The notes beneath the pieces were generated by a model. That model worked only from the letters and a program-made list of their open reading frames with translations. It was not told where the DNA came from and ran no database searches. A program made the translations under genes and the position numbers. A stretch of 64,000 nt of DNA, taken from the IMG/VR virus record IMGVR_UViG_3300020166_000012. One strand, written 5' to 3'. Below are positions 37,056 to 63,979 of the stretch, one piece after another. Numbering within the stretch: the stretch's first letter is position 1; every line of letters starts with the position of its first letter. This DNA is from an uncultured virus (IMG/VR IMGVR_UViG_3300020166_000012) (lineage: Duplodnaviria; Heunggongvirae; Uroviricota; Caudoviricetes).

Positions 37056-37253
37056 TTATTCAATAAATTTGCGGAATCTTTTTAAGATTCTTGGTGGTTT
37101 ATCTTTACGACGGCGTTTATCAACAATAACAGTGCCAGTCGGATTATCACCGGCACCAACAACTGATTGAGTAGTAGTTCCGGCCGCAATATCTTCAGTT
37201 TTTGACAATACGGGCGCTATGGCTTGACCGTAAAGGGGCTTGATTTTTTTCAT
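37056..37253 (-). CDS. small basic hypothetical protein
   Basis: Packed ORF. Confidence 0.6.
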   Translation of the reverse strand: MKKIKPLYGQAIAPVLSKTEDIAAGTTTQSVVGAGDNPTGTVIVDKRRRKDKPPRILKRFRKFIE

Positions 37254-38232: not shown

Positions 38233-39096
38233 TTAGGCGCGGTAAATCACCGTTTTATCGCCAGTAGAATTATCACCGGGTCTCGTAGTTGGACTTTTAA
38301 CGCCGTTCAAAAATGATTGAAAAGTTTTTGTGTTAACGGTTGGGCCATCAGCATATTCTGGTGTTTCAATTGTATGTTTATTAATAAAATCTGCTTCGCC
38401 CTTGCGTGTTTGCAATTGCTTTTGCCAACTATCACGTGTGATATCATTGGACTCCGGTTGCGCAGCTTCTTGAACAGATTCATCAGTATTTGATTTAGTA
38501 ATCCAATTAGAACCGTCTTTGTCGCTGGAATCATATGAGCAGTCTTCGTTTTTCGGTTTGTTAAATTCATCGCCGCACTCTTTGCATACTAAAGTTGCAT
38601 TATCAGTATCTTCATTTTTAGTTTCTGATACTTCATGATAACCGTTATTATCACAATGCTTGCAACCTTTGCCTTTGCATTCAGGGCAAACTTGACGCTC
38701 TTCATCCATAGCCTTTGCAATTGCTTTGCGGCGTTTATGAAGATATTCATCAGAAGAATCGATGTCGCCATCGTTATCAATGTCTTTGTCTTTACGGTCA
38801 TCGAATTTCTTCTTGACTGCTTTAGGCTGGACTTTATCCATACCTTCACCGTCATCAGACTTATCGTTAGTATTATCTTCGGTCTTACTCTTTTTATCCC
38901 ATGGGGCTTTTGGTAGAGTAACCTTTTCTATACCCTTTTTAGAAGCAGCACTTACTTTAGCTAACGCTTTACGCGTCGCAGCAACTGAACTTTCATCTAC
39001 GGTTTCTTCAGCAGGATTAGCCGCCGCTTCTTCCATTTGTTTTTGTTTTACTTGACCATATGTTGCGGCCAAATTTCGGATCCATTGATTATCCAT
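38233..39096 (-). CDS. charged low-complexity late protein with Zn-ribbon segments (possible head core protein)
   Basis: DIDNDGD..SSDEYLHKRRKAI, CPEC..CKHC, CKEC; several xxE-A/S sites. Confidence 0.65.
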   Translation of the reverse strand: MDNQWIRNLAATYGQVKQKQMEEAAANPAEETVDESSVAATRKALAKVSAASKKGIEKVTLPKAPWDKKSKTEDNTNDKSDDGEGMDKVQPKAVKKKFDDRKDKDIDNDGDIDSSDEYLHKRRKAIAKAMDEERQVCPECKGKGCKHCDNNGYHEVSETKNEDTDNATLVCKECGDEFNKPKNEDCSYDSSDKDGSNWITKSNTDESVQEAAQPESNDITRDSWQKQLQTRKGEADFINKHTIETPEYADGPTVNTKTFQSFLNGVKSPTTRPGDNSTGDKTVIYRA

Positions 39097-39472: not shown

Positions 39473-39712
39473 TTATTGACTACCAAATTCATGGCCGGCC
39501 ACTCGCTTCATTTGTTTATTAAATTCTTCTTGGTCCGGTTTTTTCTTGTATAGCTTAATAGAGATATTATCTTTATCTTTACCTTTAATACGCCATTTCA
39601 TACCATCCGCTTTATGTTCAGCATCAGTTGTTTTTACAACACGACGTTTATAGCCATCTTCCCAGGTTTCGGATCTTCCACCTTCGGCAATAAAAAGCTT
39701 AAATGGTTTCAT
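39473..39712 (-). CDS. putative internal head protein
   Basis: MKPFKLFIAE CTS-like N-terminus. Confidence 0.65.
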   Translation of the reverse strand: MKPFKLFIAEGGRSETWEDGYKRRVVKTTDAEHKADGMKWRIKGKDKDNISIKLYKKKPDQEEFNKQMKRVAGHEFGSQ

Positions 39713-39879
39713 TGGGATAACTCCGTCGTAGTTTCGGTTAATAAAGAAGTCTTAATTTGTAATTCTATTGGATTTGCTTCATTTAATTTAGTAGCGGATT
39801 CATTTGTAGGCTTACACTCACCACAGCAATTATCGGTACCACAATCCGGATGCTCATTCAATTGAGGATTAATTAACAT
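39709..39879 (-). CDS. small Cys-rich protein
   Basis: HPDCGTDNCCGEC. Confidence 0.55.
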   Translation of the reverse strand: MLINPQLNEHPDCGTDNCCGECKPTNESATKLNEANPIELQIKTSLLTETTTELSQ

Positions 39880-40156
39880 TTTTTTTACCCCTATTATCAT
39901 ATTCGCCCATTTTCATAACTTGTTCTTTAGCATACCATTGTGGGCTATATGTTTCATGCCAATCCCACTCGCGTGTTTTTGAATTCCACTCCAATACTTT
40001 CCACTCACCTTTATGACGAATATTTTCATCATATTGTTTTTCAATTTTAAATCTTCTACCGGTAGGAAAAGTAATTTCCTTTTCGCCGTTGGGTCCAGCC
40101 TTTTTCCATTTAGGCAATTTAACAGCTTCTGTTAAATGAGTTTTGAAACTTTTCAT
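39869..40156 (-). CDS. putative internal head protein
   Basis: MKSFKTHLTE CTS-like N-terminus. Confidence 0.65.
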   Translation of the reverse strand: MKSFKTHLTEAVKLPKWKKAGPNGEKEITFPTGRRFKIEKQYDENIRHKGEWKVLEWNSKTREWDWHETYSPQWYAKEQVMKMGEYDNRGKKNVN

Positions 40157-40446
40157 TTCATTAATTCTTTTATAATAGCTAAGGCTTTCTTACCATCAGG
40201 ATGGTTTGGATTTATACTTACTTCATCACCGTTCATAAAATCAGATATATTTGCTGATTTACCTAATGCTGTAATTGCTTTATGTAATGGATCTCTTTTA
40301 TCATATTTAGTTTCAAAATTAGGTTTACCCCGCAATTCAACCCAACTTTTTTCTTTAGTGTCTCTCATTTTTAAAGTATCCTGGCCTATGCCACGAATCA
40401 ATTTAACCATAACACCTTCAGAAATATATGTTTTAAATTTTAGCAT
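40153..40446 (-). CDS. putative internal head protein
   Basis: Reassigned start MLKFKTYISE. Confidence 0.65.
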   Translation of the reverse strand: MLKFKTYISEGVMVKLIRGIGQDTLKMRDTKEKSWVELRGKPNFETKYDKRDPLHKAITALGKSANISDFMNGDEVSINPNHPDGKKALAIIKELMK

Positions 40447-40448
40447 TG

Positions 40449-40754
40449 CTAAATACCCGGTTCTATTATTTTTAAAATTAAAGTGCCGTCGCTGGGACAA
40501 CCCGTAGGAGGTTTGCCCTTTATTAACCTATGATATTCCATTTTTTTTATTTGAAATGTTGTACCTTCTTCCATCATATGAGGAAGAGTATTTTCCATTT
40601 GGAATAACCAACCAGCACTATTATGTACAACAAGAACTAATCTATCTTTTTTATCCCTATGCCAATGTAAATCGCCGCCTTCACAATCATATGCAAAAGT
40701 TCTAAACCATACATTTTCTTCAACAGTTGGGATATCGAAATAAGGAGCTACCAA
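40449..40754 (-). CDS. cupin-like protein
   Basis: LHWHRD...W.FQ...EYHRLIKG; probable TTG start. Confidence 0.6.
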   Translation of the reverse strand: MVAPYFDIPTVEENVWFRTFAYDCEGGDLHWHRDKKDRLVLVVHNSAGWLFQMENTLPHMMEEGTTFQIKKMEYHRLIKGKPPTGCPSDGTLILKIIEPGI

Positions 40755-41284
40755 AAGAAATTTCCACCCCCGCTTAATCCCAGCTGATCGGCATAATATG
40801 GTAATCGACATGCCCAATAACCAGCAGTCATTTTATCGGTTTTTGTATCACATTGATGTCTAGCAGCAAAAGACTTACGAGCTGCCGGATCATCAATTTT
40901 TGCTTTCAATCCTGTGGTATCACCCCATGAAATTTTTTTAATCTTATCAGTTTTAGGATCTTTAACATAAACATAATATTTTTTTGGGCCGCCACGCTTT
41001 GGTTTATTTAATGGCATATCCTGCTCTTTTTCTTCGAGCATTGGTGAATCTAAGGGCACATGCTGATGATTATAAAAAGCAAATTCCCCAATATCGGTTT
41101 GTTCAATCATAAATAAATCGCGGCCAGATAACTCAATATTACCTTCAGCATATTGCTTTCGGGCATCTCTGAAAACTTTATAATAAGATTCTGAGCCAAC
41201 TCTATATAACTCACCAAGAGAAATATTATTTTCTACAACATACGTTAAATTAGTGTCATTTACAAAGTTTTTAAATTTAATCAT
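40748..41284 (-). CDS. putative internal head protein
   Basis: MIKFKNFV start; KKYYVYVK...ARKSFAARHQC...GYWAC. Confidence 0.7.
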   Translation of the reverse strand: MIKFKNFVNDTNLTYVVENNISLGELYRVGSESYYKVFRDARKQYAEGNIELSGRDLFMIEQTDIGEFAFYNHQHVPLDSPMLEEKEQDMPLNKPKRGGPKKYYVYVKDPKTDKIKKISWGDTTGLKAKIDDPAARKSFAARHQCDTKTDKMTAGYWACRLPYYADQLGLSGGGNFFW

Positions 41285-41285
41285 T

Positions 41286-41768
41286 TTATATTAATCCCTT
41301 TGAATCCATAACTAAATATCCTATACCGCCAAATACTCCGATACAAGCAAACATTAATATTAATATAGCTAAAGTATTTAATAAATTTTTACGCATTTCG
41401 GCCTGGCGATATACAGTTTCTTGCCTTTGTTTTGCTATCTTACGACGCATGCGAATTAATTCATCCCAGGCATTTGCTCCATATCTAAACATTAGCATTG
41501 TTCTTAATTCTTTTTCTTGTTCAATTATTTTCTTTTCTTGAATAAGCAATGCTAAAGCTTCTTCTTCAATAGATCCGCTAGCAAATAGCCGTTTAAAAAT
41601 TGGCGGATTTTTTGCTTGTTCTTTTGCAAATCTAAAATCATTTACTGCGCTATACCACTTACCTAATTGCTGAGCAGTATCTTCAAATTCCCTACCAGCC
41701 GCAACCATTCGAGTTACTACATTATATGCAGAGGTAGCCATAGTTATTGCTGATATTGGATCTATCAT
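41286..41768 (-). CDS. membrane-anchored hypothetical protein
   Basis: MIDPISA start, C-terminal TM. Confidence 0.75.
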   Translation of the reverse strand: MIDPISAITMATSAYNVVTRMVAAGREFEDTAQQLGKWYSAVNDFRFAKEQAKNPPIFKRLFASGSIEEEALALLIQEKKIIEQEKELRTMLMFRYGANAWDELIRMRRKIAKQRQETVYRQAEMRKNLLNTLAILILMFACIGVFGGIGYLVMDSKGLI

Positions 41769-42019
41769 TATTCGGTTTCTTTTTTATCTAAAACTGCATA
41801 CATGTCTTTAGCTTTTTCATGAAACCCGCTTAATTTATTTTGCATCCATTCCGGAAATTTTTTATTATTTTGAATATGTTCAGCTACTTCTTTGCCTACA
41901 TATTGAATAAATTCTGCTTGTTGCATAGCCATACCGGCTTCATCTGGGGAAGCCGGTTTATCATCTTCTGGCGCTTCTGTAATAATGCGGAATTCTCTTA
42001 ATTGGGTAAAGGATTTCAT
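41768..42019 (-). CDS. putative internal head protein
   Basis: MKSFTQLRE; PEWMQNKL. Confidence 0.65.
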   Translation of the reverse strand: MKSFTQLREFRIITEAPEDDKPASPDEAGMAMQQAEFIQYVGKEVAEHIQNNKKFPEWMQNKLSGFHEKAKDMYAVLDKKETE

Positions 42020-42020
42020 T

Positions 42021-44879
42021 TTATTTTACCTTACTCATTGCAAAATCCATCATTTTCATAAACCTGGTTTCGTCTTTGTTAATTGCGTCAGCAAACTTTT
42101 TCTTGTTTGCATCGTTCAACGAGTCATGCACCTTTACCATTGCAGATGCAGTGAACATATCAACTTTTGTCTTTGAACCAGAAGCAAATTTAACAGCTCC
42201 GGCCGACTTTGTGTTTACGATTTTACGAAGATCATCGATAACGCCTTCTGATACAACTTCTACATAATCTTTATTACTAGGTAATTTGCCTTTATTAAGA
42301 CCATTTTTAGCTTTATGTTTATCAAATGTGGGTTTAATACCACGCTTTTTAGCATTCTTTTCAGCTTTATCGATATCAACCATATGCTTAGCATAACCCT
42401 TCTTAAACATTTTAGGGTCAGATTTTTTATGTTCATCGTCATTTTTTGATTGCTTTTTATTACGCCAATCAATAAATTTTTTGCCGGACATTGCTGCGGC
42501 CCGATCACTGGAGGTATATTTACCGCCAAATAGACCTTTATTATCTTTGTATTTAGCACTGGTACCAGCAGCCTCTTCTAGCGGATTAGTAAAGCTATCG
42601 GCCTTTAAGCGGCCAATAATACGTCCACCCCCATCTGTAACAATAAAATCGCCGTTATCAGCAATACGAGAAGTTGTTCCGGCTTTTGCTCTTTTACCAC
42701 CAAGAGCCTTTGTCATTAGGGCCTTTACTGCTCTTTCTTTTACGCCTTCATCAAGTTCAATTTCTTCATTACGTATATTTTTCTGAAATGCTTTGTATTC
42801 TTTGCGGCGGTCTGCGTCTTTATCTAATAAAGAAAGAATTTTTTCACGTGGCTCTGTGTCTAAGTCATCGACAAACTTCTTCAGTTGTGCTGTTTGACCT
42901 TTCTTCATCATCATAGCAGCTTTTATAAAGTCCATCTTATCAATGCCGCCATGTTTACGGGCATAATCTTCAAGTTCTTTTGCAACACGTGACATTGTAG
43001 CTTCATCAAGATTCGATTCTCTTATTGAGGCTTTGTACAATTCTAAACCTTTAGAATATGCTGGGTTTTTCATCATTCGCTTTGACTCAGCATCATCTGG
43101 ATTTTGATGAGCCATGCGAACTGTTGGTTCGTCTAATTTATTGGCTTTCATATGCTTTTTATATGCATCAAACTTTTTAGAATCTACTGCTGGACCAAAT
43201 CTGTTTCTCATCGGCGTGGTTGTTTCATTAACAGATTCAGCAAGCTTCCAACCCTTTGCAAGATATTCTTTTTGTTTAGTCTTATCAATAACAATAGTTT
43301 TGCCGGCTTTATCTACAACCATGACTTCGGTTTTAGGATTTTTTAACTGCCGAGCCTCCTCAACAGATTCGGTAAATTCAACTGGAACAAGGATGGATCC
43401 TTTAGACCCACCATTAACCATCATCATTTCATCACCTTTACGAGCAATTTTAAAATCTTTGTGAATTTTTTTAAAGTTAGCTTTTGAAATATAAACTTTA
43501 TTATTTTTTACTTCATAATCGCGATCCCGTAAAACGGCTTCGTCAAGCGATTCAAATTGCATAGTATGTTGGCCACTGCCACGAACCTTTTCGGCTGCGG
43601 CTTTAGATGAATATGGGGCACCTTGATTAACAAATTTGCCACCAGAAAACTTTTGAACCTGAAACCCGGATTTTGCTTTAGCGCCGGCTCTGTTATCAGG
43701 GTGGGCATTCGACAAATCTATAATACGGATTTGACCGGTTTTAGCTTCAGAAATAGCCTCATCGCCCTTATCGGTTTCGCTGTTTATATTTTGTTTAAAT
43801 TTATTCCAATTATAATCGCGGATAATTTTTAAGATTGCATCTCTATTACTAGAACGCTTGTCAATATATTTACCAACAATGACATCAATAGACATTTTGG
43901 CTTCAAGATCTTTAATAATCTTTTTAGCTGGTAATTTAGCTTCATCTACATATTCAATACCTTCTTTCATATCGATAAGACTTGCACCTAAATCGCCAAT
44001 AGCAAAGGTAATTTTACCGTCCTTTTTTCTACGTAAGAAAGATTTAACACCACCAGATTTTGCTTGAAGAGTAATTTTTTCTTGTTCGGAAGGCTTACCT
44101 TTTAAAACGGTTGTTTTTGATAAAACTTTATATTCGACAAAATCTCCACCTTTAGATAACGTTGAATCAAATTTAATTTTTACATTATCATTTTTCTTTA
44201 ACTTATCGAAAATAGCAGAATGTTTGTCGGTCATTTCAGTTAATCCTTTAATTTGTGTAATTTCTGTGGTAGCTTCTGCCATTGCAGGCTTTTCAATCAT
44301 ATACATTTGTACAGATTCCGTTGGAACAATTCCACCACTTTTCCATACTTTTGGGGCAATAAGAACTCGCGGTCCTCTTAATTCTTTTACAATATAATCC
44401 ATTTTAGCTTCGGCTGGTCCGTCAGCGTATTTCTTTTTTAAACGAACAGTATCACCTTTTTTAATTTCGGTTTTTGCTTCATAAGCTGGGCCACGCTTTG
44501 GTGATCCTGGATTTGGCTGTTTTAAATTTTTACGAAGTGCTGCAAGATCATTTTTAAGCTTGCTTATCTTAAAAGATTTCATAACATTTGAATTGCCAGA
44601 TTTTGTTATAGCATTTTTTGTTAATTGCATAGACTCTTCGGTATTTTCTTTACGTGACATAGATTTATCCATTTTATCGGCCGCGGAATTGAATAGTTTA
44701 GTATAAGTTTTTTCATTTTCGGCGGCCGAAGGCATTGCCATCATAACATCATCATTAACAAGATCCCAATTAATTGAACCATCTTTATTATAATTAGCCT
44801 TATCTTTTAAAGACTTTTTTATGTGTTTTTCAATATTAGATTTATTAAGAGAAGCCTCTTGCAAATTACGATTTTCCAT
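42021..44879 (-). CDS. 952-aa modular polyprotein-like late protein
   Basis: GAGG RBS before MENRNLQE; basic modules separated by acidic xxE linkers. Confidence 0.8.
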   Translation of the reverse strand: MENRNLQEASLNKSNIEKHIKKSLKDKANYNKDGSINWDLVNDDVMMAMPSAAENEKTYTKLFNSAADKMDKSMSRKENTEESMQLTKNAITKSGNSNVMKSFKISKLKNDLAALRKNLKQPNPGSPKRGPAYEAKTEIKKGDTVRLKKKYADGPAEAKMDYIVKELRGPRVLIAPKVWKSGGIVPTESVQMYMIEKPAMAEATTEITQIKGLTEMTDKHSAIFDKLKKNDNVKIKFDSTLSKGGDFVEYKVLSKTTVLKGKPSEQEKITLQAKSGGVKSFLRRKKDGKITFAIGDLGASLIDMKEGIEYVDEAKLPAKKIIKDLEAKMSIDVIVGKYIDKRSSNRDAILKIIRDYNWNKFKQNINSETDKGDEAISEAKTGQIRIIDLSNAHPDNRAGAKAKSGFQVQKFSGGKFVNQGAPYSSKAAAEKVRGSGQHTMQFESLDEAVLRDRDYEVKNNKVYISKANFKKIHKDFKIARKGDEMMMVNGGSKGSILVPVEFTESVEEARQLKNPKTEVMVVDKAGKTIVIDKTKQKEYLAKGWKLAESVNETTTPMRNRFGPAVDSKKFDAYKKHMKANKLDEPTVRMAHQNPDDAESKRMMKNPAYSKGLELYKASIRESNLDEATMSRVAKELEDYARKHGGIDKMDFIKAAMMMKKGQTAQLKKFVDDLDTEPREKILSLLDKDADRRKEYKAFQKNIRNEEIELDEGVKERAVKALMTKALGGKRAKAGTTSRIADNGDFIVTDGGGRIIGRLKADSFTNPLEEAAGTSAKYKDNKGLFGGKYTSSDRAAAMSGKKFIDWRNKKQSKNDDEHKKSDPKMFKKGYAKHMVDIDKAEKNAKKRGIKPTFDKHKAKNGLNKGKLPSNKDYVEVVSEGVIDDLRKIVNTKSAGAVKFASGSKTKVDMFTASAMVKVHDSLNDANKKKFADAINKDETRFMKMMDFAMSKVK

Positions 44880-45357
44880 TGTAACCTCTACCGATTGATT
44901 TACGGAATTGTTTAACACCAACTCTATCAGACATGTCTTGGCCCTTTTCACGCTTACGAATAGTTTCTTTTTCTTTTGAAATTTCAGGATTGCCGCGAAG
45001 AAGTTTAGCTGTTGCAGTATTACGAGCCTTATCACTTTTCATTTTAGCTTTTTTTCTATAGCTATCCAATGCGCCTGGACGATCTAGAACTTCATCAATA
45101 GTCTCTTCATTCTTGCCTCTTACTTTATCCGCTAAATCTTTATCGGCTTTGCCCCATGTGCCCGGAGATTTTGTAGTAAACGAATTAACCCTAGCAAATC
45201 CCCATTGTTCAGGAGTGGTTCCAGGTCTATGACCGGTTTTCCAAGCCGCTACACCGCGGTTATATACACTACGTAAAACACTTAATGGCATTCCAGATTT
45301 TTCCGCTTTATTTTTAAGTGCTTTAGTATTTTCATTAAATTGTTTAAAAGTTTTCAT
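44866..45357 (-). CDS. putative internal head protein
   Basis: MKTFKQFNE; VYNRG.AAW.TGHRPG...W..ARVNSF. Confidence 0.7.
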   Translation of the reverse strand: MKTFKQFNENTKALKNKAEKSGMPLSVLRSVYNRGVAAWKTGHRPGTTPEQWGFARVNSFTTKSPGTWGKADKDLADKVRGKNEETIDEVLDRPGALDSYRKKAKMKSDKARNTATAKLLRGNPEISKEKETIRKREKGQDMSDRVGVKQFRKSIGRGYNGKS

Positions 45358-46556
45358 GGCTTTGTCGATCTATTTGTTGAACGTGTTTGTAAAGTTCGCG
45401 CGCGATCTCGCATTGCATCAAATTTGATTTTATCTGCTCTTTTTTCTCTATTAATTCTATCATTTACTTTATCAATATAATCAATTTCTTCGTCGGTATC
45501 GCCAAACATTTGTGCAAATCGTTTAGTGTGCTTACTTGGCTTAGTTTTTGCAGTGGCATCGCCTGGTGCTTTTTTATAAGCATCGGGATTATTATCAGCC
45601 TTTTTAGCATTCTTTTTAAAATGTTGGTCTCTAGCAATTTTTGTAGACTTGTTCTTTATTCCAGCAAAATACTTTTTAGGCTGCGCTCCATCACGGTCCG
45701 CAATATCGGGATCTTGGGTAGTAGTTGTTTTTTCTTCAATTTTTTCAATTCTATCAAGCCATTGTCTAGATTTTCCGGATGAAGTTTCAACAATTACATA
45801 ATTTGGGCCAAGTGTTGCAATAATACCAACCTCGCTTGTTTCAGTAATAATAATTTCTTCGCCTATAGAATACAAATCACCCTTTACATATTGCTCTCTA
45901 ATATCAGAAATAGATTCTAATTGAATGTGACGTTTAAATTCGGTTTCTTCTTTTAATCCCATGCCTTTACGCACATCATTAAAAAGTTTTTTTGCATCAG
46001 AATTACTCATTGAAGTAGGAAGACCTTCATAAAATTTTGTGAAATTATTCTCTGCGGCAAATTTACGCTGCTTAGTTCCAGACGCACCGTCTGGCCCATC
46101 GCTATCAGCATCTCGCATACCGGCCGATATTACCTGAACCCCACCATTAAAATTATAAAATCCGTGAGTAGAATCAACTCCATTATATTTATTTAATCTA
46201 ATTTTATATTCATCCACTCTATCACTACCAGCTACCATAATAACTTTACGGAAACCCTGATCATAAAGATAAGCTAATGCAAAAAAAGGATTAATAATTT
46301 TTTTATTAATTAAAATATTGCGGGCATGTTTTGGAAACATTTTTCGCACATGCTTTACCTTGTCCGCATATTTCAAAGGATTATCTTTTTTATCCTGAGA
46401 TTGAGATAAAAAGATTTTATACGGCAAACGGCCAGCGGTTTGCGCTAGTTTATTTAATAATTTACCATGACCAACAGTAGGCGGATTTAATCTACCAAAA
46501 GTAAAATATACTATTTGGTCTTCTTCAATAATATATTGTTTAAAAGAATTAACCAT
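45354..46556 (-). CDS. HxGH-type nucleotidyltransferase (phage 'cytidyltransferase') with C-terminal extension
   Basis: FGRLNPPTVGH, VAGSDR, SGTKQR; CTS-like start. Confidence 0.85.
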   Translation of the reverse strand: MVNSFKQYIIEEDQIVYFTFGRLNPPTVGHGKLLNKLAQTAGRLPYKIFLSQSQDKKDNPLKYADKVKHVRKMFPKHARNILINKKIINPFFALAYLYDQGFRKVIMVAGSDRVDEYKIRLNKYNGVDSTHGFYNFNGGVQVISAGMRDADSDGPDGASGTKQRKFAAENNFTKFYEGLPTSMSNSDAKKLFNDVRKGMGLKEETEFKRHIQLESISDIREQYVKGDLYSIGEEIIITETSEVGIIATLGPNYVIVETSSGKSRQWLDRIEKIEEKTTTTQDPDIADRDGAQPKKYFAGIKNKSTKIARDQHFKKNAKKADNNPDAYKKAPGDATAKTKPSKHTKRFAQMFGDTDEEIDYIDKVNDRINREKRADKIKFDAMRDRARTLQTRSTNRSTKP

Positions 46557-46995
46557 TTTTAGATTGTGCCTTATGCTGTTTTCTATCTTTTTCAGCTTGA
46601 CGCATTTTTGGAAGCAATTTTACAGCAATGCGATCTATTCTTGAGCCCATTTTCTCAAGCCGTTTTTCTAATTCCATTTTACGAGCAACTGACATATCAC
46701 TTTTCGGAATATCTTTTGTAAGTTTTTTAAGAATAATATTACGGGCTGCTTTACGTGCACGTTTTTTTAACACATCTTTATTGGCAGTACGACGTGCGGC
46801 GCGGTTGCGCCCCATTTTTAATTTAGCTTTATTACGTTTCATACTACGGCCGCGAGCTAATCGCTGTTGAATATTGAGAGCCTCATCTGGGCCACCACTA
46901 CCGCCGGTTCTTTTTGTTCTATGTGCTTGATGTTGAACTTCGTCTGGTTCTCCATCACGCATATCTACAACTCTTAGATCTTTAAATCTAATCAT
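46549..46995 (-). CDS. basic hypothetical protein
   Basis: R/K-rich; DE-ALNIQQR. Confidence 0.7.
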   Translation of the reverse strand: MIRFKDLRVVDMRDGEPDEVQHQAHRTKRTGGSGGPDEALNIQQRLARGRSMKRNKAKLKMGRNRAARRTANKDVLKKRARKAARNIILKKLTKDIPKSDMSVARKMELEKRLEKMGSRIDRIAVKLLPKMRQAEKDRKQHKAQSKNG

Positions 46996-48224
46996 TAACT
47001 TCTCCCTGGCTTATCCCATCCTTTAATAATATCTGGCGAAAAGTTGTTGTATGAAAATTCTAATCTATCAACAATCTTTACAGCGTCACTACCCAGTCTA
47101 TCAATTGCTACATAACCTTCTTGACCCGTTGTTTTAAAACCATTTTTAGTTTTTACAAAAGTCTTTACTTTATTTATCCTATCAAGTATATTTATAAGTT
47201 TTAATTTCGCTAAGACAATAACTTTCTGCAATTCGAACATAGTTATCAAATTATTTTTATTATTAGCCGAAAAAAATGATAAAATATCATTCAGTTTATC
47301 TTGTTTGCGCCCCTTACCTTTTTCAGTTTTAAGCTTATCCATTTCTTTTTGGAATTTTGCTTCAATAAATTTAATAAGTGCCGTTACTCTTTTGGCTGGA
47401 TCCGGGGGCATTTGGCCTGCCCGTACATAAGAATTTGAATGTTGCTCTATTAATTGTGTTAAATCAGTATTAGCTTCTAAGGTGCGTAAAACGCCCCCCG
47501 AAATTTTATTAAATAATTTTCCAGCTTGAGTTAAATAGTCATTTACTATATCGGAATCAGACTTATTCATAGTAAGATTTGTCATATCACGAAGCATAGC
47601 ATCTTGCGACCAAACATTTTTTGATTTTTTAAGACGAGAAACATTAACACCATATGAAGCTTTCATAGTTTCAAATGTATTACCTTTATATGTAGTATGC
47701 CAAACAATACCAATTTTAGATGCTAAAATTTCTTTTGATGATACTGTATTAGCTGGTACAGCATAAACAATAGTATTTGGATGGAAGGTGATATATTTTT
47801 CACCAGCAATAGTTTCATTACTAAGATCGCCTGGGCCGTATAAAAAATCGCCCTGAATAACTTCAGTAATTCCCAATTCGGGTAAATATTGTAAGGCTTG
47901 CTTAAGCTTTATAGCTAAATCGCCTGAAGTATCTGCATCTACCTCACCTGGAGTTTTATATACTTTTGGATTTTTATTAAAAATACCCTTTTTAGCAACA
48001 AAAAATTTGCCATCAGCTGGATCAATGCCAGCAAATACTGCTGGTGCTCCATCCCATTTAACAGATATTTTCCCGTCATGTTCGCCCTTTAACATATTAC
48101 GCAATTCGCGCAAAGCCATAATAGCTTGACGAGTACCATTAACACCACCATAAATCACCTTATCTTCAAGGTGTGTCATGTGAGTATTTTTGTTTTCAGC
48201 AATGAAAGATTTAAAGTTTTCCAT
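46995..48224 (-). CDS. ligase-like nucleotidyltransferase-fold protein
   Basis: SVKWDGAP (KxDG), QGD, EGYV, KIVDRLEFS; MENFKSFIAE start. Confidence 0.7.
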   Translation of the reverse strand: MENFKSFIAENKNTHMTHLEDKVIYGGVNGTRQAIMALRELRNMLKGEHDGKISVKWDGAPAVFAGIDPADGKFFVAKKGIFNKNPKVYKTPGEVDADTSGDLAIKLKQALQYLPELGITEVIQGDFLYGPGDLSNETIAGEKYITFHPNTIVYAVPANTVSSKEILASKIGIVWHTTYKGNTFETMKASYGVNVSRLKKSKNVWSQDAMLRDMTNLTMNKSDSDIVNDYLTQAGKLFNKISGGVLRTLEANTDLTQLIEQHSNSYVRAGQMPPDPAKRVTALIKFIEAKFQKEMDKLKTEKGKGRKQDKLNDILSFFSANNKNNLITMFELQKVIVLAKLKLINILDRINKVKTFVKTKNGFKTTGQEGYVAIDRLGSDAVKIVDRLEFSYNNFSPDIIKGWDKPGRS

Positions 48225-49843: not shown

Positions 49844-49851
49844 TATTTATA
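49844..49851 (-). promoter_or_regulatory. late promoter TATAAATA heading the internal-protein operon
   Basis: Exact motif about 30 nt upstream of the 49812 start. Confidence 0.7.
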
Positions 49852-55128: not shown

Positions 55129-55644
55129 ATGAAGCATATATTTTTTATTATAATTTTCTTATTCAGTACAGGCTGTTCCATATTTAATACATTGGGGCAA
55201 CAGCCAAAACATACTATAAATCTTACTGAAGCGATTTATTATGTTGGTCTTAATGAAAATATAGATCGTGTTCAATTAAAAAGATTTTTAAATGTTGACC
55301 CGGTTACAACTGAGTGGTGCGCAGCATTTATCAATGCGGTTTTAGCTAGAAATAATATATCAAACCTACACGATTTTAATTCTAAACGACCATTATTAGC
55401 ACAAGAATTTTTAAATTACGGAGAAATAATTCTTGAAGAAGAATTGCGGTATGGCGATATTATAATAATAGAGCGCGACGGCGCAAAATGGCAAGGTCAT
55501 GTTGGATTTTTTATGGGAATTCGGCATTCTCGAGGGCAAAAATATTATTTACTTTTGGGTGGTAATCAAAATAATAAAGTTAGTATTACCCCATATTCAT
55601 CAAAGAAATTAATTGGAATGCGAAGATATTCTAATTATAAATAA
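55129..55644 (+). CDS. TIGR02594/NlpC-P60-like lipoprotein peptidoglycan hydrolase
   Basis: Lipobox STGC, WCAAFIN, GHVGF, LGGNQ; TATAAATA at 55116-55123. Confidence 0.85.
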   Translation: MKHIFFIIIFLFSTGCSIFNTLGQQPKHTINLTEAIYYVGLNENIDRVQLKRFLNVDPVTTEWCAAFINAVLARNNISNLHDFNSKRPLLAQEFLNYGEIILEEELRYGDIIIIERDGAKWQGHVGFFMGIRHSRGQKYYLLLGGNQNNKVSITPYSSKKLIGMRRYSNYK

Positions 55645-55672
55645 AACTATATAAGCAATTAATGAGAATCTA

Positions 55673-56440
55673 ATGTATACTTTTAAATCATTTATAAGCG
55701 AAAGCGCTAAATCAGATAAGTATGAAAATGATATGGCTAAACACATTGCCGATATGGGTTTAGACGCATCTCGTCCAGCCGTTGATCCAACATATTCAGA
55801 TATTCTTATTAAATATAAAGGCGATCGCATATGGTTAGAAGTTAAAATGAATCACTCTGACCAACTTGGCAATACTCGCGCTAGTTTTGACGGTAAAAAA
55901 TGGATTGCCGCAATTGATAAAAAAGGCCCTAGTAAGGGTAAATTATCTCCTCTTAAAGCATATATTACTAAAACCTTAAATAACGATAAAGATACTCAAG
56001 CATGGTTAAAAGATCTTGAAAAGTTTTCCGGAATAAAGGGTATGAAAGTACCCACATTAATTTCTGGATTGAGTGATCCAAAATCCGTTCCACGTGATGT
56101 AATGATTGCATATTTAAAAGGTAAAAAACAATATATTTTAAATAAACCTGAAGTAGATTTGGGCGAGTTAATTACTCAGCATTATCTTAAAGGGAAATCC
56201 GAGCCAGCATATTATATGCAAGCCGGCGATGATTTCTATAGAATTGGTTCTGCAAATCCAATGGGCGTTCCTAATGATGTTCCATTACTCTCTGGCACTG
56301 GCCCATTCAAAATGCGCATTGGTATGCGGTCAAAGTATTATGAGGTGCAGCCCGAGGTTAAAATTACTAAAATGCCGAGCAGTAAGTATTCCTTAAAGCC
56401 CGGCACTAGTAAATTAAACCCATTTGAAAATATCAAATAA
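55673..56440 (+). CDS. PD-(D/E)XK-like nuclease with CTS-like N-terminus
   Basis: MYTFKSFISE; YE...SDI...WLEVK; TATAAATA at 55636-55643. Confidence 0.65.
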   Translation: MYTFKSFISESAKSDKYENDMAKHIADMGLDASRPAVDPTYSDILIKYKGDRIWLEVKMNHSDQLGNTRASFDGKKWIAAIDKKGPSKGKLSPLKAYITKTLNNDKDTQAWLKDLEKFSGIKGMKVPTLISGLSDPKSVPRDVMIAYLKGKKQYILNKPEVDLGELITQHYLKGKSEPAYYMQAGDDFYRIGSANPMGVPNDVPLLSGTGPFKMRIGMRSKYYEVQPEVKITKMPSSKYSLKPGTSKLNPFENIK

Positions 56441-61109: not shown

Positions 61110-61904
61110 TTAGAATGCAAAGCTTAATTCAATTGAAGGAGAAAAATCTTCACTATTTAAATTATAATTTGCGCCTGTGGTAAGCTCAGCGCCCGCAATA
61201 CCATATACAAATTCGCCACCAATATTTTGTAGCATATCAGTGTCGTCACCATTAATATATGTTGTAATTACAGATTGCTTTGCTACAAGCTCATAACCTA
61301 TTGCTGTAGTGTCTACATCATAAGATACTGCACCGCCAACTGCGGCAACACCAAGATCAACACCAGTAACGCCGGCGCCAAATACAGTATTTTCAGTATT
61401 TAAGTTATAATCAGCAGCGGCAGTAATTTCAATTCCAGCTACGGATGGGAGTACAATTGCGCCCTGTACATTGCTAATATCTGTAATATCGGCAGCAATA
61501 TCAGTAAATCCGATAGCCGCAGAAATTGCACCCATATTTACTTGTACAGATTCAGCCATTGCTGGAGCAGTAAGTGTTTGCTCGCCTTCGGCACCTGGCA
61601 TTACACCATTGTCATCGCCAATTGCAATATCGATACCGGCTACTTGTGTGCCAATTGTCCAATTATCAAGAGTAACACCATTTCCGTCTGTTGCAGAAAA
61701 GTCAAGGTTTACAGTTGAAATACCAGCAACATCAATACCAAGATCGAATGTTGGAGTTGCGGCCCATTTATCTGCAGCGGTTTCTGCAAATGTTAAAACA
61801 GCTTTACCAGATAATGTTGGGCCATATGGCAGTACTGTAGTTTCAGCATATGCTGCACCAGCAAATCCTGTTACAAGTGCAGATGTGATAAGTAAATTAC
61901 GCAT
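61110..61904 (-). CDS. porin-like outer-membrane beta-barrel protein
   Basis: Signal peptide, amphipathic strands, C-terminal SFAF. Confidence 0.75.
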   Translation of the reverse strand: MRNLLITSALVTGFAGAAYAETTVLPYGPTLSGKAVLTFAETAADKWAATPTFDLGIDVAGISTVNLDFSATDGNGVTLDNWTIGTQVAGIDIAIGDDNGVMPGAEGEQTLTAPAMAESVQVNMGAISAAIGFTDIAADITDISNVQGAIVLPSVAGIEITAAADYNLNTENTVFGAGVTGVDLGVAAVGGAVSYDVDTTAIGYELVAKQSVITTYINGDDTDMLQNIGGEFVYGIAGAELTTGANYNLNSEDFSPSIELSFAF

Positions 61905-63688: not shown

Positions 63689-63979
63689 TTATACTCCCAA
63701 ATAATCGGTTTTTAGAATTTCGAGTTGCCCAATAGCGTTTGGATAACGAGTGAGTAAATTTTCAGTATTGTCTAGCAAGTCGTCACGTAAAACATCTAAG
63801 CAGTCTATGATATATGATCGGGTATATACAAAACATTCATTGTACATATCAGCTTCAACAAAAGCCCAATTGATTTTGTTATTATAATCAAAATTCTCGC
63901 GAAGAAAAATCGCGGTATTAAAAGCTTCGACTACATCATTTTTGATGGCCGAACCATTTGCTAGATGATAGATTGTCAT
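63689..63979 (-). CDS. INW-motif family protein (paralog of 51266-51472)
   Basis: IKNDVVEAFN.A...EN....INWAFVEAD. Confidence 0.75.
   Translation of the reverse strand: MTIYHLANGSAIKNDVVEAFNTAIFLRENFDYNNKINWAFVEADMYNECFVYTRSYIIDCLDVLRDDLLDNTENLLTRYPNAIGQLEILKTDYLGV

What the first reader, a model, noticed from the sequence alone, without database searches (positions are those of the whole stretch)
42021..44879. Candidate capsid-packaged polyprotein: about 13 small modules separated by prohead-protease-like sites
Seen: the 952-aa protein is a string of unrelated, Lys-rich segments of about 40-110 aa. They are joined by recurring acidic linkers of the form hydrophobic-x-E followed by a small residue: NLQE|A, PAYE|A, AMAE|A, GLTE|M, YVDE|A, AISE|A, FESLDE|A, TESVEE|A, AESVNE|T, ESNLDE|A, IELDE|G, PLEE|A, VVSE|G. 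Known: the T4 prohead protease gp21 cleaves after Glu in (I/L)-X-E-like contexts and matures the internal proteins. Inference: this gene is a magazine of small effectors. It would be packaged as one precursor, cut during head maturation and injected with the DNA, and modules could be added or swapped freely.
Basis: partly seen in the sequence, partly recalled or inferred. Interest (0 to 1): 0.88.

Follow-up and report, generated by a model that had tools for sequence, protein, structure and literature searches.

The report
Phage head-cargo polyprotein with swappable modules
One gene of an uncultured marine relative of phage T4 strings about 13 small, separately evolving proteins together with a short peptide that fits the cutting rule of the phage's head-maturation protease, so it is probably loaded into the virus head and cut into a swappable set of mini-proteins, although no cutting, packaging or function has been measured.

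Summary
The minus-strand 952-aa ORF is real and carries the 13 listed Glu sites (11 fit [ILV]-x-E). Relatives match it piecewise: 233 of 307 distinct homology breakpoints lie within 10 aa of those sites (shifted sites: mean 83, max 166). A near-identical allele gains one module and loses another exactly at linkers. Modules recur in other orders, are under purifying selection and, where modelled, fold separately. They also occur alone behind T4-type capsid-targeting leaders and in the gene slot between portal and prohead protease. The same phage encodes a T4 gp21-type protease, and its capsid protein has a matching site. Proteins of the orthologous locus were detected in virions of two cyanophages. 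Against: this protein lacks a canonical targeting leader, the cleavage rule is loose, no module has a known function, and no cut is shown. Best reading: a head-packaged, protease-cut magazine of injected mini-proteins (0.55); the main rival is expendable core or DNA-packing filler (0.22). Nine literature searches found no description. This scan noted the same architecture on other DNA (91 notes, at least 86 genomes).

The parts
42021..44879 (-). 952-aa polyprotein gene (P0001)
   Evidence: (no Pfam or PHROG hit for the whole protein)
44856..44879 (-). 8-aa leader ending LQE|A; not a canonical T4 capsid-targeting sequence
44634..44855 (-). module aa 9-82 (neutral, rare)
   Evidence: 3 hits
   Evidence: P0048 shares it behind a different N-terminus
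44274..44477 (-). module aa 135-202; elsewhere a stand-alone 71-74 aa protein behind a targeting-type leader, or the tail of a cytidylyltransferase fusion
44235..44273 (-). 13-aa spacer between two Glu sites (aa 203-215)
43941..44234 (-). module aa 216-313; also in cultured phages Melnitz (57%) and C48C1 (36%)
43746..43940 (-). module aa 314-378; allele P0003 has a 76-aa extra module inserted right after it
43539..43745 (-). module aa 379-447
   Evidence: 22 hits
43356..43538 (-). module aa 448-508; first module of a gene between gp20 and gp21 in L103
43224..43355 (-). module aa 509-552, small beta-hairpin plus helix in the model
43002..43223 (-). module aa 553-626, helical in the model
   Evidence: 68 hits
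42747..43001 (-). module aa 627-711, helical, commonest module; cleanly absent from allele P0003
   Evidence: 101 hits
42573..42746 (-). module aa 712-769
   Evidence: 21 hits
42246..42572 (-). module aa 770-878, most basic
   Evidence: 32 hits
42024..42245 (-). C-terminal module aa 879-952; compact fold; C-terminal domain of phrog_696/phrog_4187; often ends the gene just before gp21
49844..49851 (-). TATAAATA, T4-type late promoter consensus (recalled), 32 nt before the first gene of the tightly packed gene run
46995..48224 (-). DUF6267 gene with targeting-type leader
46549..46995 (-). basic 148-aa ORF with targeting-type leader; fused to cytidylyltransferase in relatives
45354..46556 (-). 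cytidylyltransferase-like gene (phrog_395/3041) with targeting-type leader; ortholog detected in S-SM1 and S-CREM2 virions
44866..45357 (-). leader + DUF5824 + second module; in this allele a 379-bp deletion at 45111/45112 has fused two genes next to a linker
41768..42019 (-). leader + one module that is embedded between linkers in other polyproteins; replaced by 12 bp in other alleles
39473..41284 (-). four further small ORFs with targeting-type leaders (40748, 40153, 39869, 39473)
38233..39096 (-). second, 287-aa linker-bearing mosaic ORF; shares a module with S-SM1 virion protein SSM1_191 (weak direct match, E 0.003)

Best explanation
The gene is a late-expressed precursor of small internal head proteins. 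SHOWN: 13 autonomous modules are joined by one family of acidic linkers (consensus E-[ES]-[EV]-E-[LVI]-[DE]-E | [AG]) and are exchanged between phages by in-frame recombination within the linker DNA. INFERRED: the precursor joins the prohead core; the phage's gp21-type protease cuts after the linker Glu as it does after an N-terminal targeting leader; the 5-12 kDa products stay in the head and leave with the DNA; at least some act at once on the host, most plausibly as inhibitors of DNA-directed defences, as T4 IPI-III do. The linker is at once cut site and crossover site, so one loading event carries a freely edited set of cargoes.
For: Breakpoints: 233 of 307 distinct junctions within 10 aa of the 13 a-priori sites, 0 of 921 shifted site sets reach that (raw 332 of 440). 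[ILV(MF)]-x-E at the projected boundary in 176 of 216 upstream contexts against 16% background. Linker once per 131 aa in 150 homologs against 650 in this phage's other ORFs and 660 in shuffles. Allele P0003: +76 aa at Glu378, -85 aa from Glu626 to Glu711. DNA crossovers fall in the linker codons; a 3-module block is 91% identical in DNA between phages whose gp20, gp22 and gp23 are 40, 37 and 57% identical in protein. Where a module is first in its ORF, 24 of 27 N-termini have hydrophobic-x-E at the boundary and 13 of 27 a targeting-type leader. 9 of 18 locus ORFs have such a leader against 14 of 197 others. 27 of 69 module-bearing ORFs sit after gp20 and/or before gp21 (counted; many are close relatives). 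G002, 99.3-99.9% identical to the window, has gp21 with T4's catalytic positions conserved and gp23 ITE|D aligned with T4's LTE65|A; scaffold gp22 and P0001 have the most linker-profile hits, 6 each, of 215 ORFs. dN/dS 0.03-0.5 for modules. Models: last module pLDDT 90; three-module piece pLDDT 70-89 inside, 34-60 at linkers, pTM 0.43. Virions: S-SM1 SSM1_188, 190, 191, 192, 195, 197; S-CREM2 gp154, 155, 156, 160, 176. T4 IPs are equally Lys-rich, 13-15%, and each blocks one GmrSD nuclease (PMC12373910).
Against: No cleavage, packaging or injection is measured for this protein or any close homolog. P0001 starts with no canonical targeting leader, and only 25 of 182 homologs that begin with Met match the leader pattern. 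The gp21 rule is loose: five more [ILV]-x-E sites lie off the boundaries, two inside modules (166, 584), and 32 of 215 ORFs have at least one profile hit; gp22 is Glu-rich anyway. No module matches a known function; 58 of 64 long homologs have no Pfam hit. Strong purifying selection is not what a fast arms race predicts. The virion-detected cyanophage proteins share locus, architecture and a few modules with neighbours or homologs of P0001, but none of P0001's own 13 modules was found in them. Multiple sites in head proteins usually mark parts to be destroyed (gp22, gp67, gp68; SPN3US propeptides). Low pLDDT at linkers is partly built in by the block alignment, and the linker at Glu626 is modelled as helix.
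Confidence: 0.55

Rival explanations
1. Packaged and cut by gp21, but structural: an expanded, expendable prohead-core or DNA-packing component in the manner of T4 gp67/gp68. The products are cleared from the head or stay as basic counter-ions and do nothing in the host.
For: 27 of 69 module-bearing ORFs occupy the gp67/gp68 slot; gp21 degrades gp22, gp67 and gp68 into peptides (PMC9958956); 11 of 13 modules are basic; the linker resembles gp22's C-terminal acidic tract; no enzyme domain in P0001.
Against: No sequence similarity to T4 gp67 or gp68. Modules have distinct folds and sequence-specific purifying selection, exist as stand-alone leader-tagged genes, travel with enzymes such as cytidylyltransferase and a zeta-like P-loop kinase, and can be gained or lost without compensation.
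Confidence: 0.22
2. The linkers are only flexible spacers and recombination joints; the protein works uncut as a multi-domain polyvalent protein.
For: Crossovers lie in linker DNA; linker codons are more uniform than background (GAA 23 of 23 at one Glu against 71%; 23 linkers, not independent); N4 virion RNA polymerase is packaged unprocessed (PMC5512222).
Against: Linkers vary at synonymous positions and form no DNA repeat family in this gene; the same P3-P1-P1' pattern ends N-terminal leaders, where no crossover is needed, and marks the gp23 maturation site.
Confidence: 0.1
3. The family is head cargo, but this gene has lost its loading signal; it is an unpackaged or weakly packaged late protein, or a store of modules.
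For: Leader is not of the T4 type; neighbouring genes show fresh deletions and a truncation that coexist in populations.
Against: The frame is intact in all full copies seen; other leader types head many homologs; an 8-aa leader ending LQE|A is kept, like the 6-aa ITE leader of Alt (PMC5694885).
Confidence: 0.1

Closest known systems
Phage T4 internal proteins IPI, IPII, IPIII and Alt (capsid-targeting sequence plus gp21 processing)
   Same: Small Lys-rich proteins, leader removed after L/I-x-E, variable between phages; neighbours in this locus and stand-alone modules carry leaders like T4's.
   Different: T4 IPs are one protein per gene and are cut near the ends only; here 13 modules share one chain with internal sites. 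No sequence similarity to IPI-III. P0001 lacks the canonical leader.
T4 prohead core proteins gp22, gp67, gp68
   Same: Many Glu sites; same gene slot between portal and protease in relatives.
   Different: Core proteins are conserved and destroyed; these chains are reshuffled strings of folded modules with no similarity to gp67 or gp68.
Cyanomyovirus 'cytidyltransferase' locus virion proteins (S-SM1 T4-GC 190, 425, 426, 1453-1455; S-CREM2 gp154-160; phrog_696)
   Same: Same gene neighbourhood, Lys-rich mosaics with the same linkers, detected in virions.
   Different: Listed only as hypothetical or structural proteins; modularity and cleavage are not discussed in the passages read; chains are shorter (160-600 aa).
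Polyvalent proteins of phages and conjugative elements (PMC5512222)
   Same: Many unrelated domains in one chain, predicted to be packaged and delivered.
   Different: Those are large enzymatic domains released by embedded peptidases; here tiny unknown modules, no embedded peptidase found, and a shared prohead-protease-type linker.
Jumbo-phage (phiKZ, SPN3US) head proteins cut by the prohead protease
   Same: Multiple Glu sites per protein.
   Different: Sites lie in propeptides that are removed, leaving one mature protein; motif is S/A-x-E.

Membership tests
T4 internal proteins (IP) | N-terminal capsid-targeting sequence of the IPII/IPIII type | tested here: not met
   P0001 does not match the leader pattern; 9 of 18 locus ORFs do
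T4 internal proteins (IP) | gp21-type site (L/I-x-E) ending the leader | tested here: met
   LQE8|A; sequence fit only
T4 internal proteins (IP) | Cognate gp21 protease in the genome | tested here: met
   PF03420 at E 1.8e-42 in G002, the same phage; 45% identity to T4 gp21 over 148 aa
T4 internal proteins (IP) | Sequence homology to IPI, IPII or IPIII | tested here: not met
   No BLASTP hit to the locus proteins or to 188 homologs
T4 internal proteins (IP) | One mature protein per gene | tested here: not met
   13 separately inherited modules
T4 internal proteins (IP) | Present in virion, cleaved, ejected into host | not testable with these tools
   Only indirect: orthologous-locus proteins in S-SM1 and S-CREM2 virions
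T4 internal proteins (IP) | Inhibition of host restriction (GmrSD) | not testable with these tools
   No fold match to a known inhibitor for the four modules modelled; absence is inconclusive
T4 core proteins gp67/gp68 | Gene between portal gp20 and protease gp21 | tested here: not met
   This gene lies about 60 kb from gp21 in G002; relatives with the same modules do sit there
T4 core proteins gp67/gp68 | Homology to gp67 or gp68 | tested here: not met
   modules hit no head-scaffold PHROG
Polyvalent proteins (Iyer et al. 2017) | Recognised effector or peptidase domains (MPTase, ART, GNAT and others) | tested here: not met
   No Pfam, PHROG or NCBIfam family for P0001
Polyvalent proteins (Iyer et al. 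2017) | Shuffled multi-domain architecture in a mobile element | tested here: met

The most novel reading that the evidence does not exclude
Marine T4-like phages keep a communal library of dozens to hundreds of unknown mini-proteins, each flanked by a linker that is both a prohead-protease site and a recombination joint. Any module can be slotted into a capsid-loaded chain and is released as a pre-formed effector at the moment of infection, which makes these genes a directly readable catalogue of injected anti-defence and host-takeover proteins.
Probability: 0.4. Interest if true: 0.92.

Novelty: new variant of a known kind. Interest (0 to 1): 0.8.

Why it matters
If true, it extends the T4 internal-protein principle from one cargo per gene to an editable polyprotein and explains the long-unannotated Lys-rich 'structural' genes near the cytidylyltransferase of marine myophages. 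The linker gives a rule for cutting more than a thousand uncharacterised proteins (1241 representatives at E up to 0.001) into their real units for screening. It is testable now in cultured, harmless marine phages (Melnitz, C48C1, S-SM1, S-CREM2), partly by re-searching existing virion spectra.

Tried and rejected
No family for the whole protein or most modules in Pfam, PHROGs or NCBIfam; PDB sequence search gave only a 29-aa uteroglobin-fusion match, treated as chance. Fold searches: last module best Z 4.2, rmsd 2.9, 62 aligned (anti-CRISPR AcrIIA26, 3% identity), not above background; three-module model no Foldseek hit at E 0.001 in PDB or BFVD and best Z 7.2, rmsd 4.2, 86 aligned, generic helical bundles; nine modules were not modelled. 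ESM Atlas: no usable feature hit; its whole-protein model has pTM 0.19. Complex prediction of the last module with scaffold gp22: no answer, score 0.00. A suspected likeness of module 9-82 to ORF 63689-63979 gave no alignment. No DNA repeat family at the linkers. No close relative of modules 509-711 in cellular genomes. TATAAATA is not more frequent than chance overall (14 against 18); only its placement is suggestive (7 of 11 minus-strand copies within 70 nt of a start, about 12% expected). RNA-run contigs were not taken as proof of transcription. L007/L060 (head-operon gene whose second half is 97.5% identical to this gene) may be an assembly chimera and is not relied on. The upstream GTG start (1004 aa) was set aside because homologs and the ribosome-binding site favour the ATG. 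Literature: searches found no paper on prohead-protease-cut polyproteins of T4-like phages; the library lacks most subscription journals and bioRxiv supplements.
Full report
Setting. The window is part of a marine T4-like myophage. The gene run carries nrdA/B, phoH, RNase H, spanins, DUF7207, DUF5824, a cytidylyltransferase-like gene and DUF6267. No genome is held for the window, but contig G002 is 99.3-99.9% identical to it over 21 kb and carries the head genes. Its capsid protein is closest to C48C1 (66%), Melnitz (61%) and HTVC008M (60%) among 2601 phage records hit. The host is unknown.

Observation. The ORF is on the minus strand, 952 aa, 16% Lys, and has all 13 sites quoted. The linker pattern is far above shuffles (8 against 0.27). 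Seven sites are strict L/I-x-E, four V-x-E, two neither; five further [ILV]-x-E sites are not boundaries. One interval is a 13-aa spacer and one boundary (Glu82) was missed, leaving 13 modules of 44-109 aa, 11 of them basic.

Modules are real units. The first search gave 46 proteins, the profile library 1241 representatives of which 150 were listed, a search of shorter proteins 24. Almost all match only pieces. Allele P0003 is 97-100% identical per module, yet has a 76-aa module inserted at Glu378 and lacks aa 627-711 exactly; the inserted module occurs in 5 other chains. In DNA, shared blocks begin and end inside the linker codons, and the block aa 506-712 is 91% identical between this phage and G004, whose portal, scaffold and capsid proteins are only 40, 37 and 57% identical: recent transfer. 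An automatic cut of 150 homologs of 300 aa or more gave 778 fragments in 272 clusters (49 with three or more members; rough, since missed cuts merge modules); the cluster of the commonest module has 36 left and 40 right neighbour types. Modules are under purifying selection, dN/dS 0.03-0.5 in the nine modules that could be compared, many pairs saturated. The last module folds with pLDDT 90 and recurs in viral proteins of 77-913 aa. A three-module piece shows high confidence inside modules, dips at the three linkers and pTM 0.43; the block alignment favours such dips.

The linker behaves like a protease site. Upstream of homologous modules the consensus is E-[ES]-[EV]-E-[LVI]-[DE]-E followed by Ala or Gly, and a hydrophobic-x-E lies within 3 residues of the projected boundary in 176 of 216 contexts (16% background). 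T4 gp21 cuts after L/I-x-E (PMC9026906, passages and section 10), removes 65 residues from gp23 and destroys gp22, gp67 and gp68 (PMC9958956, passages). This phage's gp21 is 45% identical to T4's over 148 aa with His85, Ser140 and Asp168 aligned (residue roles recalled), and its gp23 has ITE|D where T4 has LTE|A. A linker profile built from homologs scores most hits in gp22 and P0001 (6 each), with 32 of 215 ORFs having at least one. The most telling point is equivalence: module 135-202 occurs as a 71-74 aa gene behind a leader like T4's capsid-targeting sequence, as the tail of a cytidylyltransferase fusion, and inside P0001. Of 27 N-termini in which a P0001 module comes first, 24 have the site and 13 the leader. 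Conversely, two modules that stand alone behind leaders in this window are embedded between linkers elsewhere. The linker DNA also serves as crossover point: it varies synonymously but is more uniform than background, and it forms no repeat family within this gene.

Link to the head. Nine of 18 ORFs of the locus start with a targeting-type leader, against 14 of 197 elsewhere (pattern set after inspection). The run is tightly packed behind a TATAAATA at 49844-49851. Of 69 other module-bearing ORFs in fetched loci, 27 lie after gp20 and/or before gp21, 39 in the cytidylyltransferase locus and 3 have no marker (hand count; close relatives included). In S-SM1 virions the products of SSM1_188, 190, 191, 192, 195 and 197 were detected (PMC3037559, passages and supplement file 1 parts 3-4; column headers were lost in the text, so the S-SM1 column was identified from gene sizes). 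SSM1_191 has the linker and shares a module with 13 of 208 homologs. In S-CREM2 virions gp154, 155, 156, 160 and 176 were detected, and the authors caution that co-purification is possible (PMC10665884, passages and section 18). gp160 matches the N-terminal part of phrog_696, whose C-terminal part is P0001's last module, but gp160 and SSM1_197 lack that module.

Against. P0001 has no canonical leader. None of its own modules was found in a virion-detected protein. No function can be assigned: 58 of 64 long homologs tested have no Pfam hit, the rest DUF5824, a zeta-like P-loop kinase or a marginal helix-turn-helix. In SPN3US multiple sites mark propeptides that are removed (PMC10052503, passages; PMC5694885, passages).

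Mechanism. Shown: modular architecture, exchange at linkers, fit to the T4 rule, cognate protease, head-linked contexts. Inferred: late synthesis, loading into the prohead core, cutting, retention, ejection and action on the host. I put packaging plus cutting near 0.77, split between injected effectors (0.55) and core or DNA-packing filler (0.22); uncut protein 0.10; unpackaged copy 0.10. The analogy for function is T4 IPI-III, each a specific GmrSD inhibitor (PMC12373910, passages).

Novelty. It works like the T4 internal-protein system but is not a member: no canonical leader, no homology, many products per gene. It differs from polyvalent proteins (PMC5512222, passages). PMC9503650, PMC12379486 and PMC10684548 (passages) added nothing; the Melnitz paper was seen only as a listing. 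Nine searches found no description, within a library lacking most subscription journals. This scan has noted the same architecture on other DNA: 91 notes in at least 86 genomes, 8 shown; searches by this sequence and place found none. My reading was recorded before seeing them. Verdict: real, a new variant of a known kind, interest 0.8.

Noticed in passing
window 45111/45112: This allele lacks 379 bp present in G002, L003 and L004; the deletion removes a stop, a start and two modules and fuses the DUF5824 gene in frame to a linker-led module. Both forms occur in public runs.
   Followed up: partly
window 41797-41997: The leader-plus-module ORF 41768-42019 is reduced to a 20-aa stub (201 bp replaced by 12 bp) in L003, L004, L006, L010; both alleles coexist in runs X14 and X15.
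   Followed up: partly
window 37056-37253; L001 22687-23205; L053 8398-9225: A module that begins after TE| and resembles the mature N-terminus of the major capsid protein; this likely explains the 'major head protein' label of phrog_696.
   Followed up: partly
window 46549-46995: Arg/Lys-rich ORF reminiscent of the basic tail of T4 gp68, but no BLAST hit to gp68; fused to cytidylyltransferase in relatives.
   Followed up: partly
L044 3005-5037 (G002): The large terminase gene region is interrupted by a GIY-YIG ORF, and the downstream ORF starts with an intein-like stretch (my impression) before Terminase_6C.
   Followed up: no
window 61110-61904: 264-aa ORF that looks like an alphaproteobacterial porin-type outer-membrane protein; no Pfam hit. 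Possible host hint, unverified.
   Followed up: no
window 55129-56440: Two plus-strand ORFs in a minus-strand region; the 255-aa one starts with a targeting-type leader and has a TATAAATA at 55636-55643 just upstream.
   Followed up: no
L014 1962-5447; L019 3069-6542: 1160-aa chains in which DUF5824, the commonest P0001 module and a zeta-toxin-like P-loop kinase are modules between linkers.
   Followed up: partly
L044 17040-17462 (G002): 140-aa ORF after uvsW with three linker-profile hits, the highest density in the genome scan.
   Followed up: no
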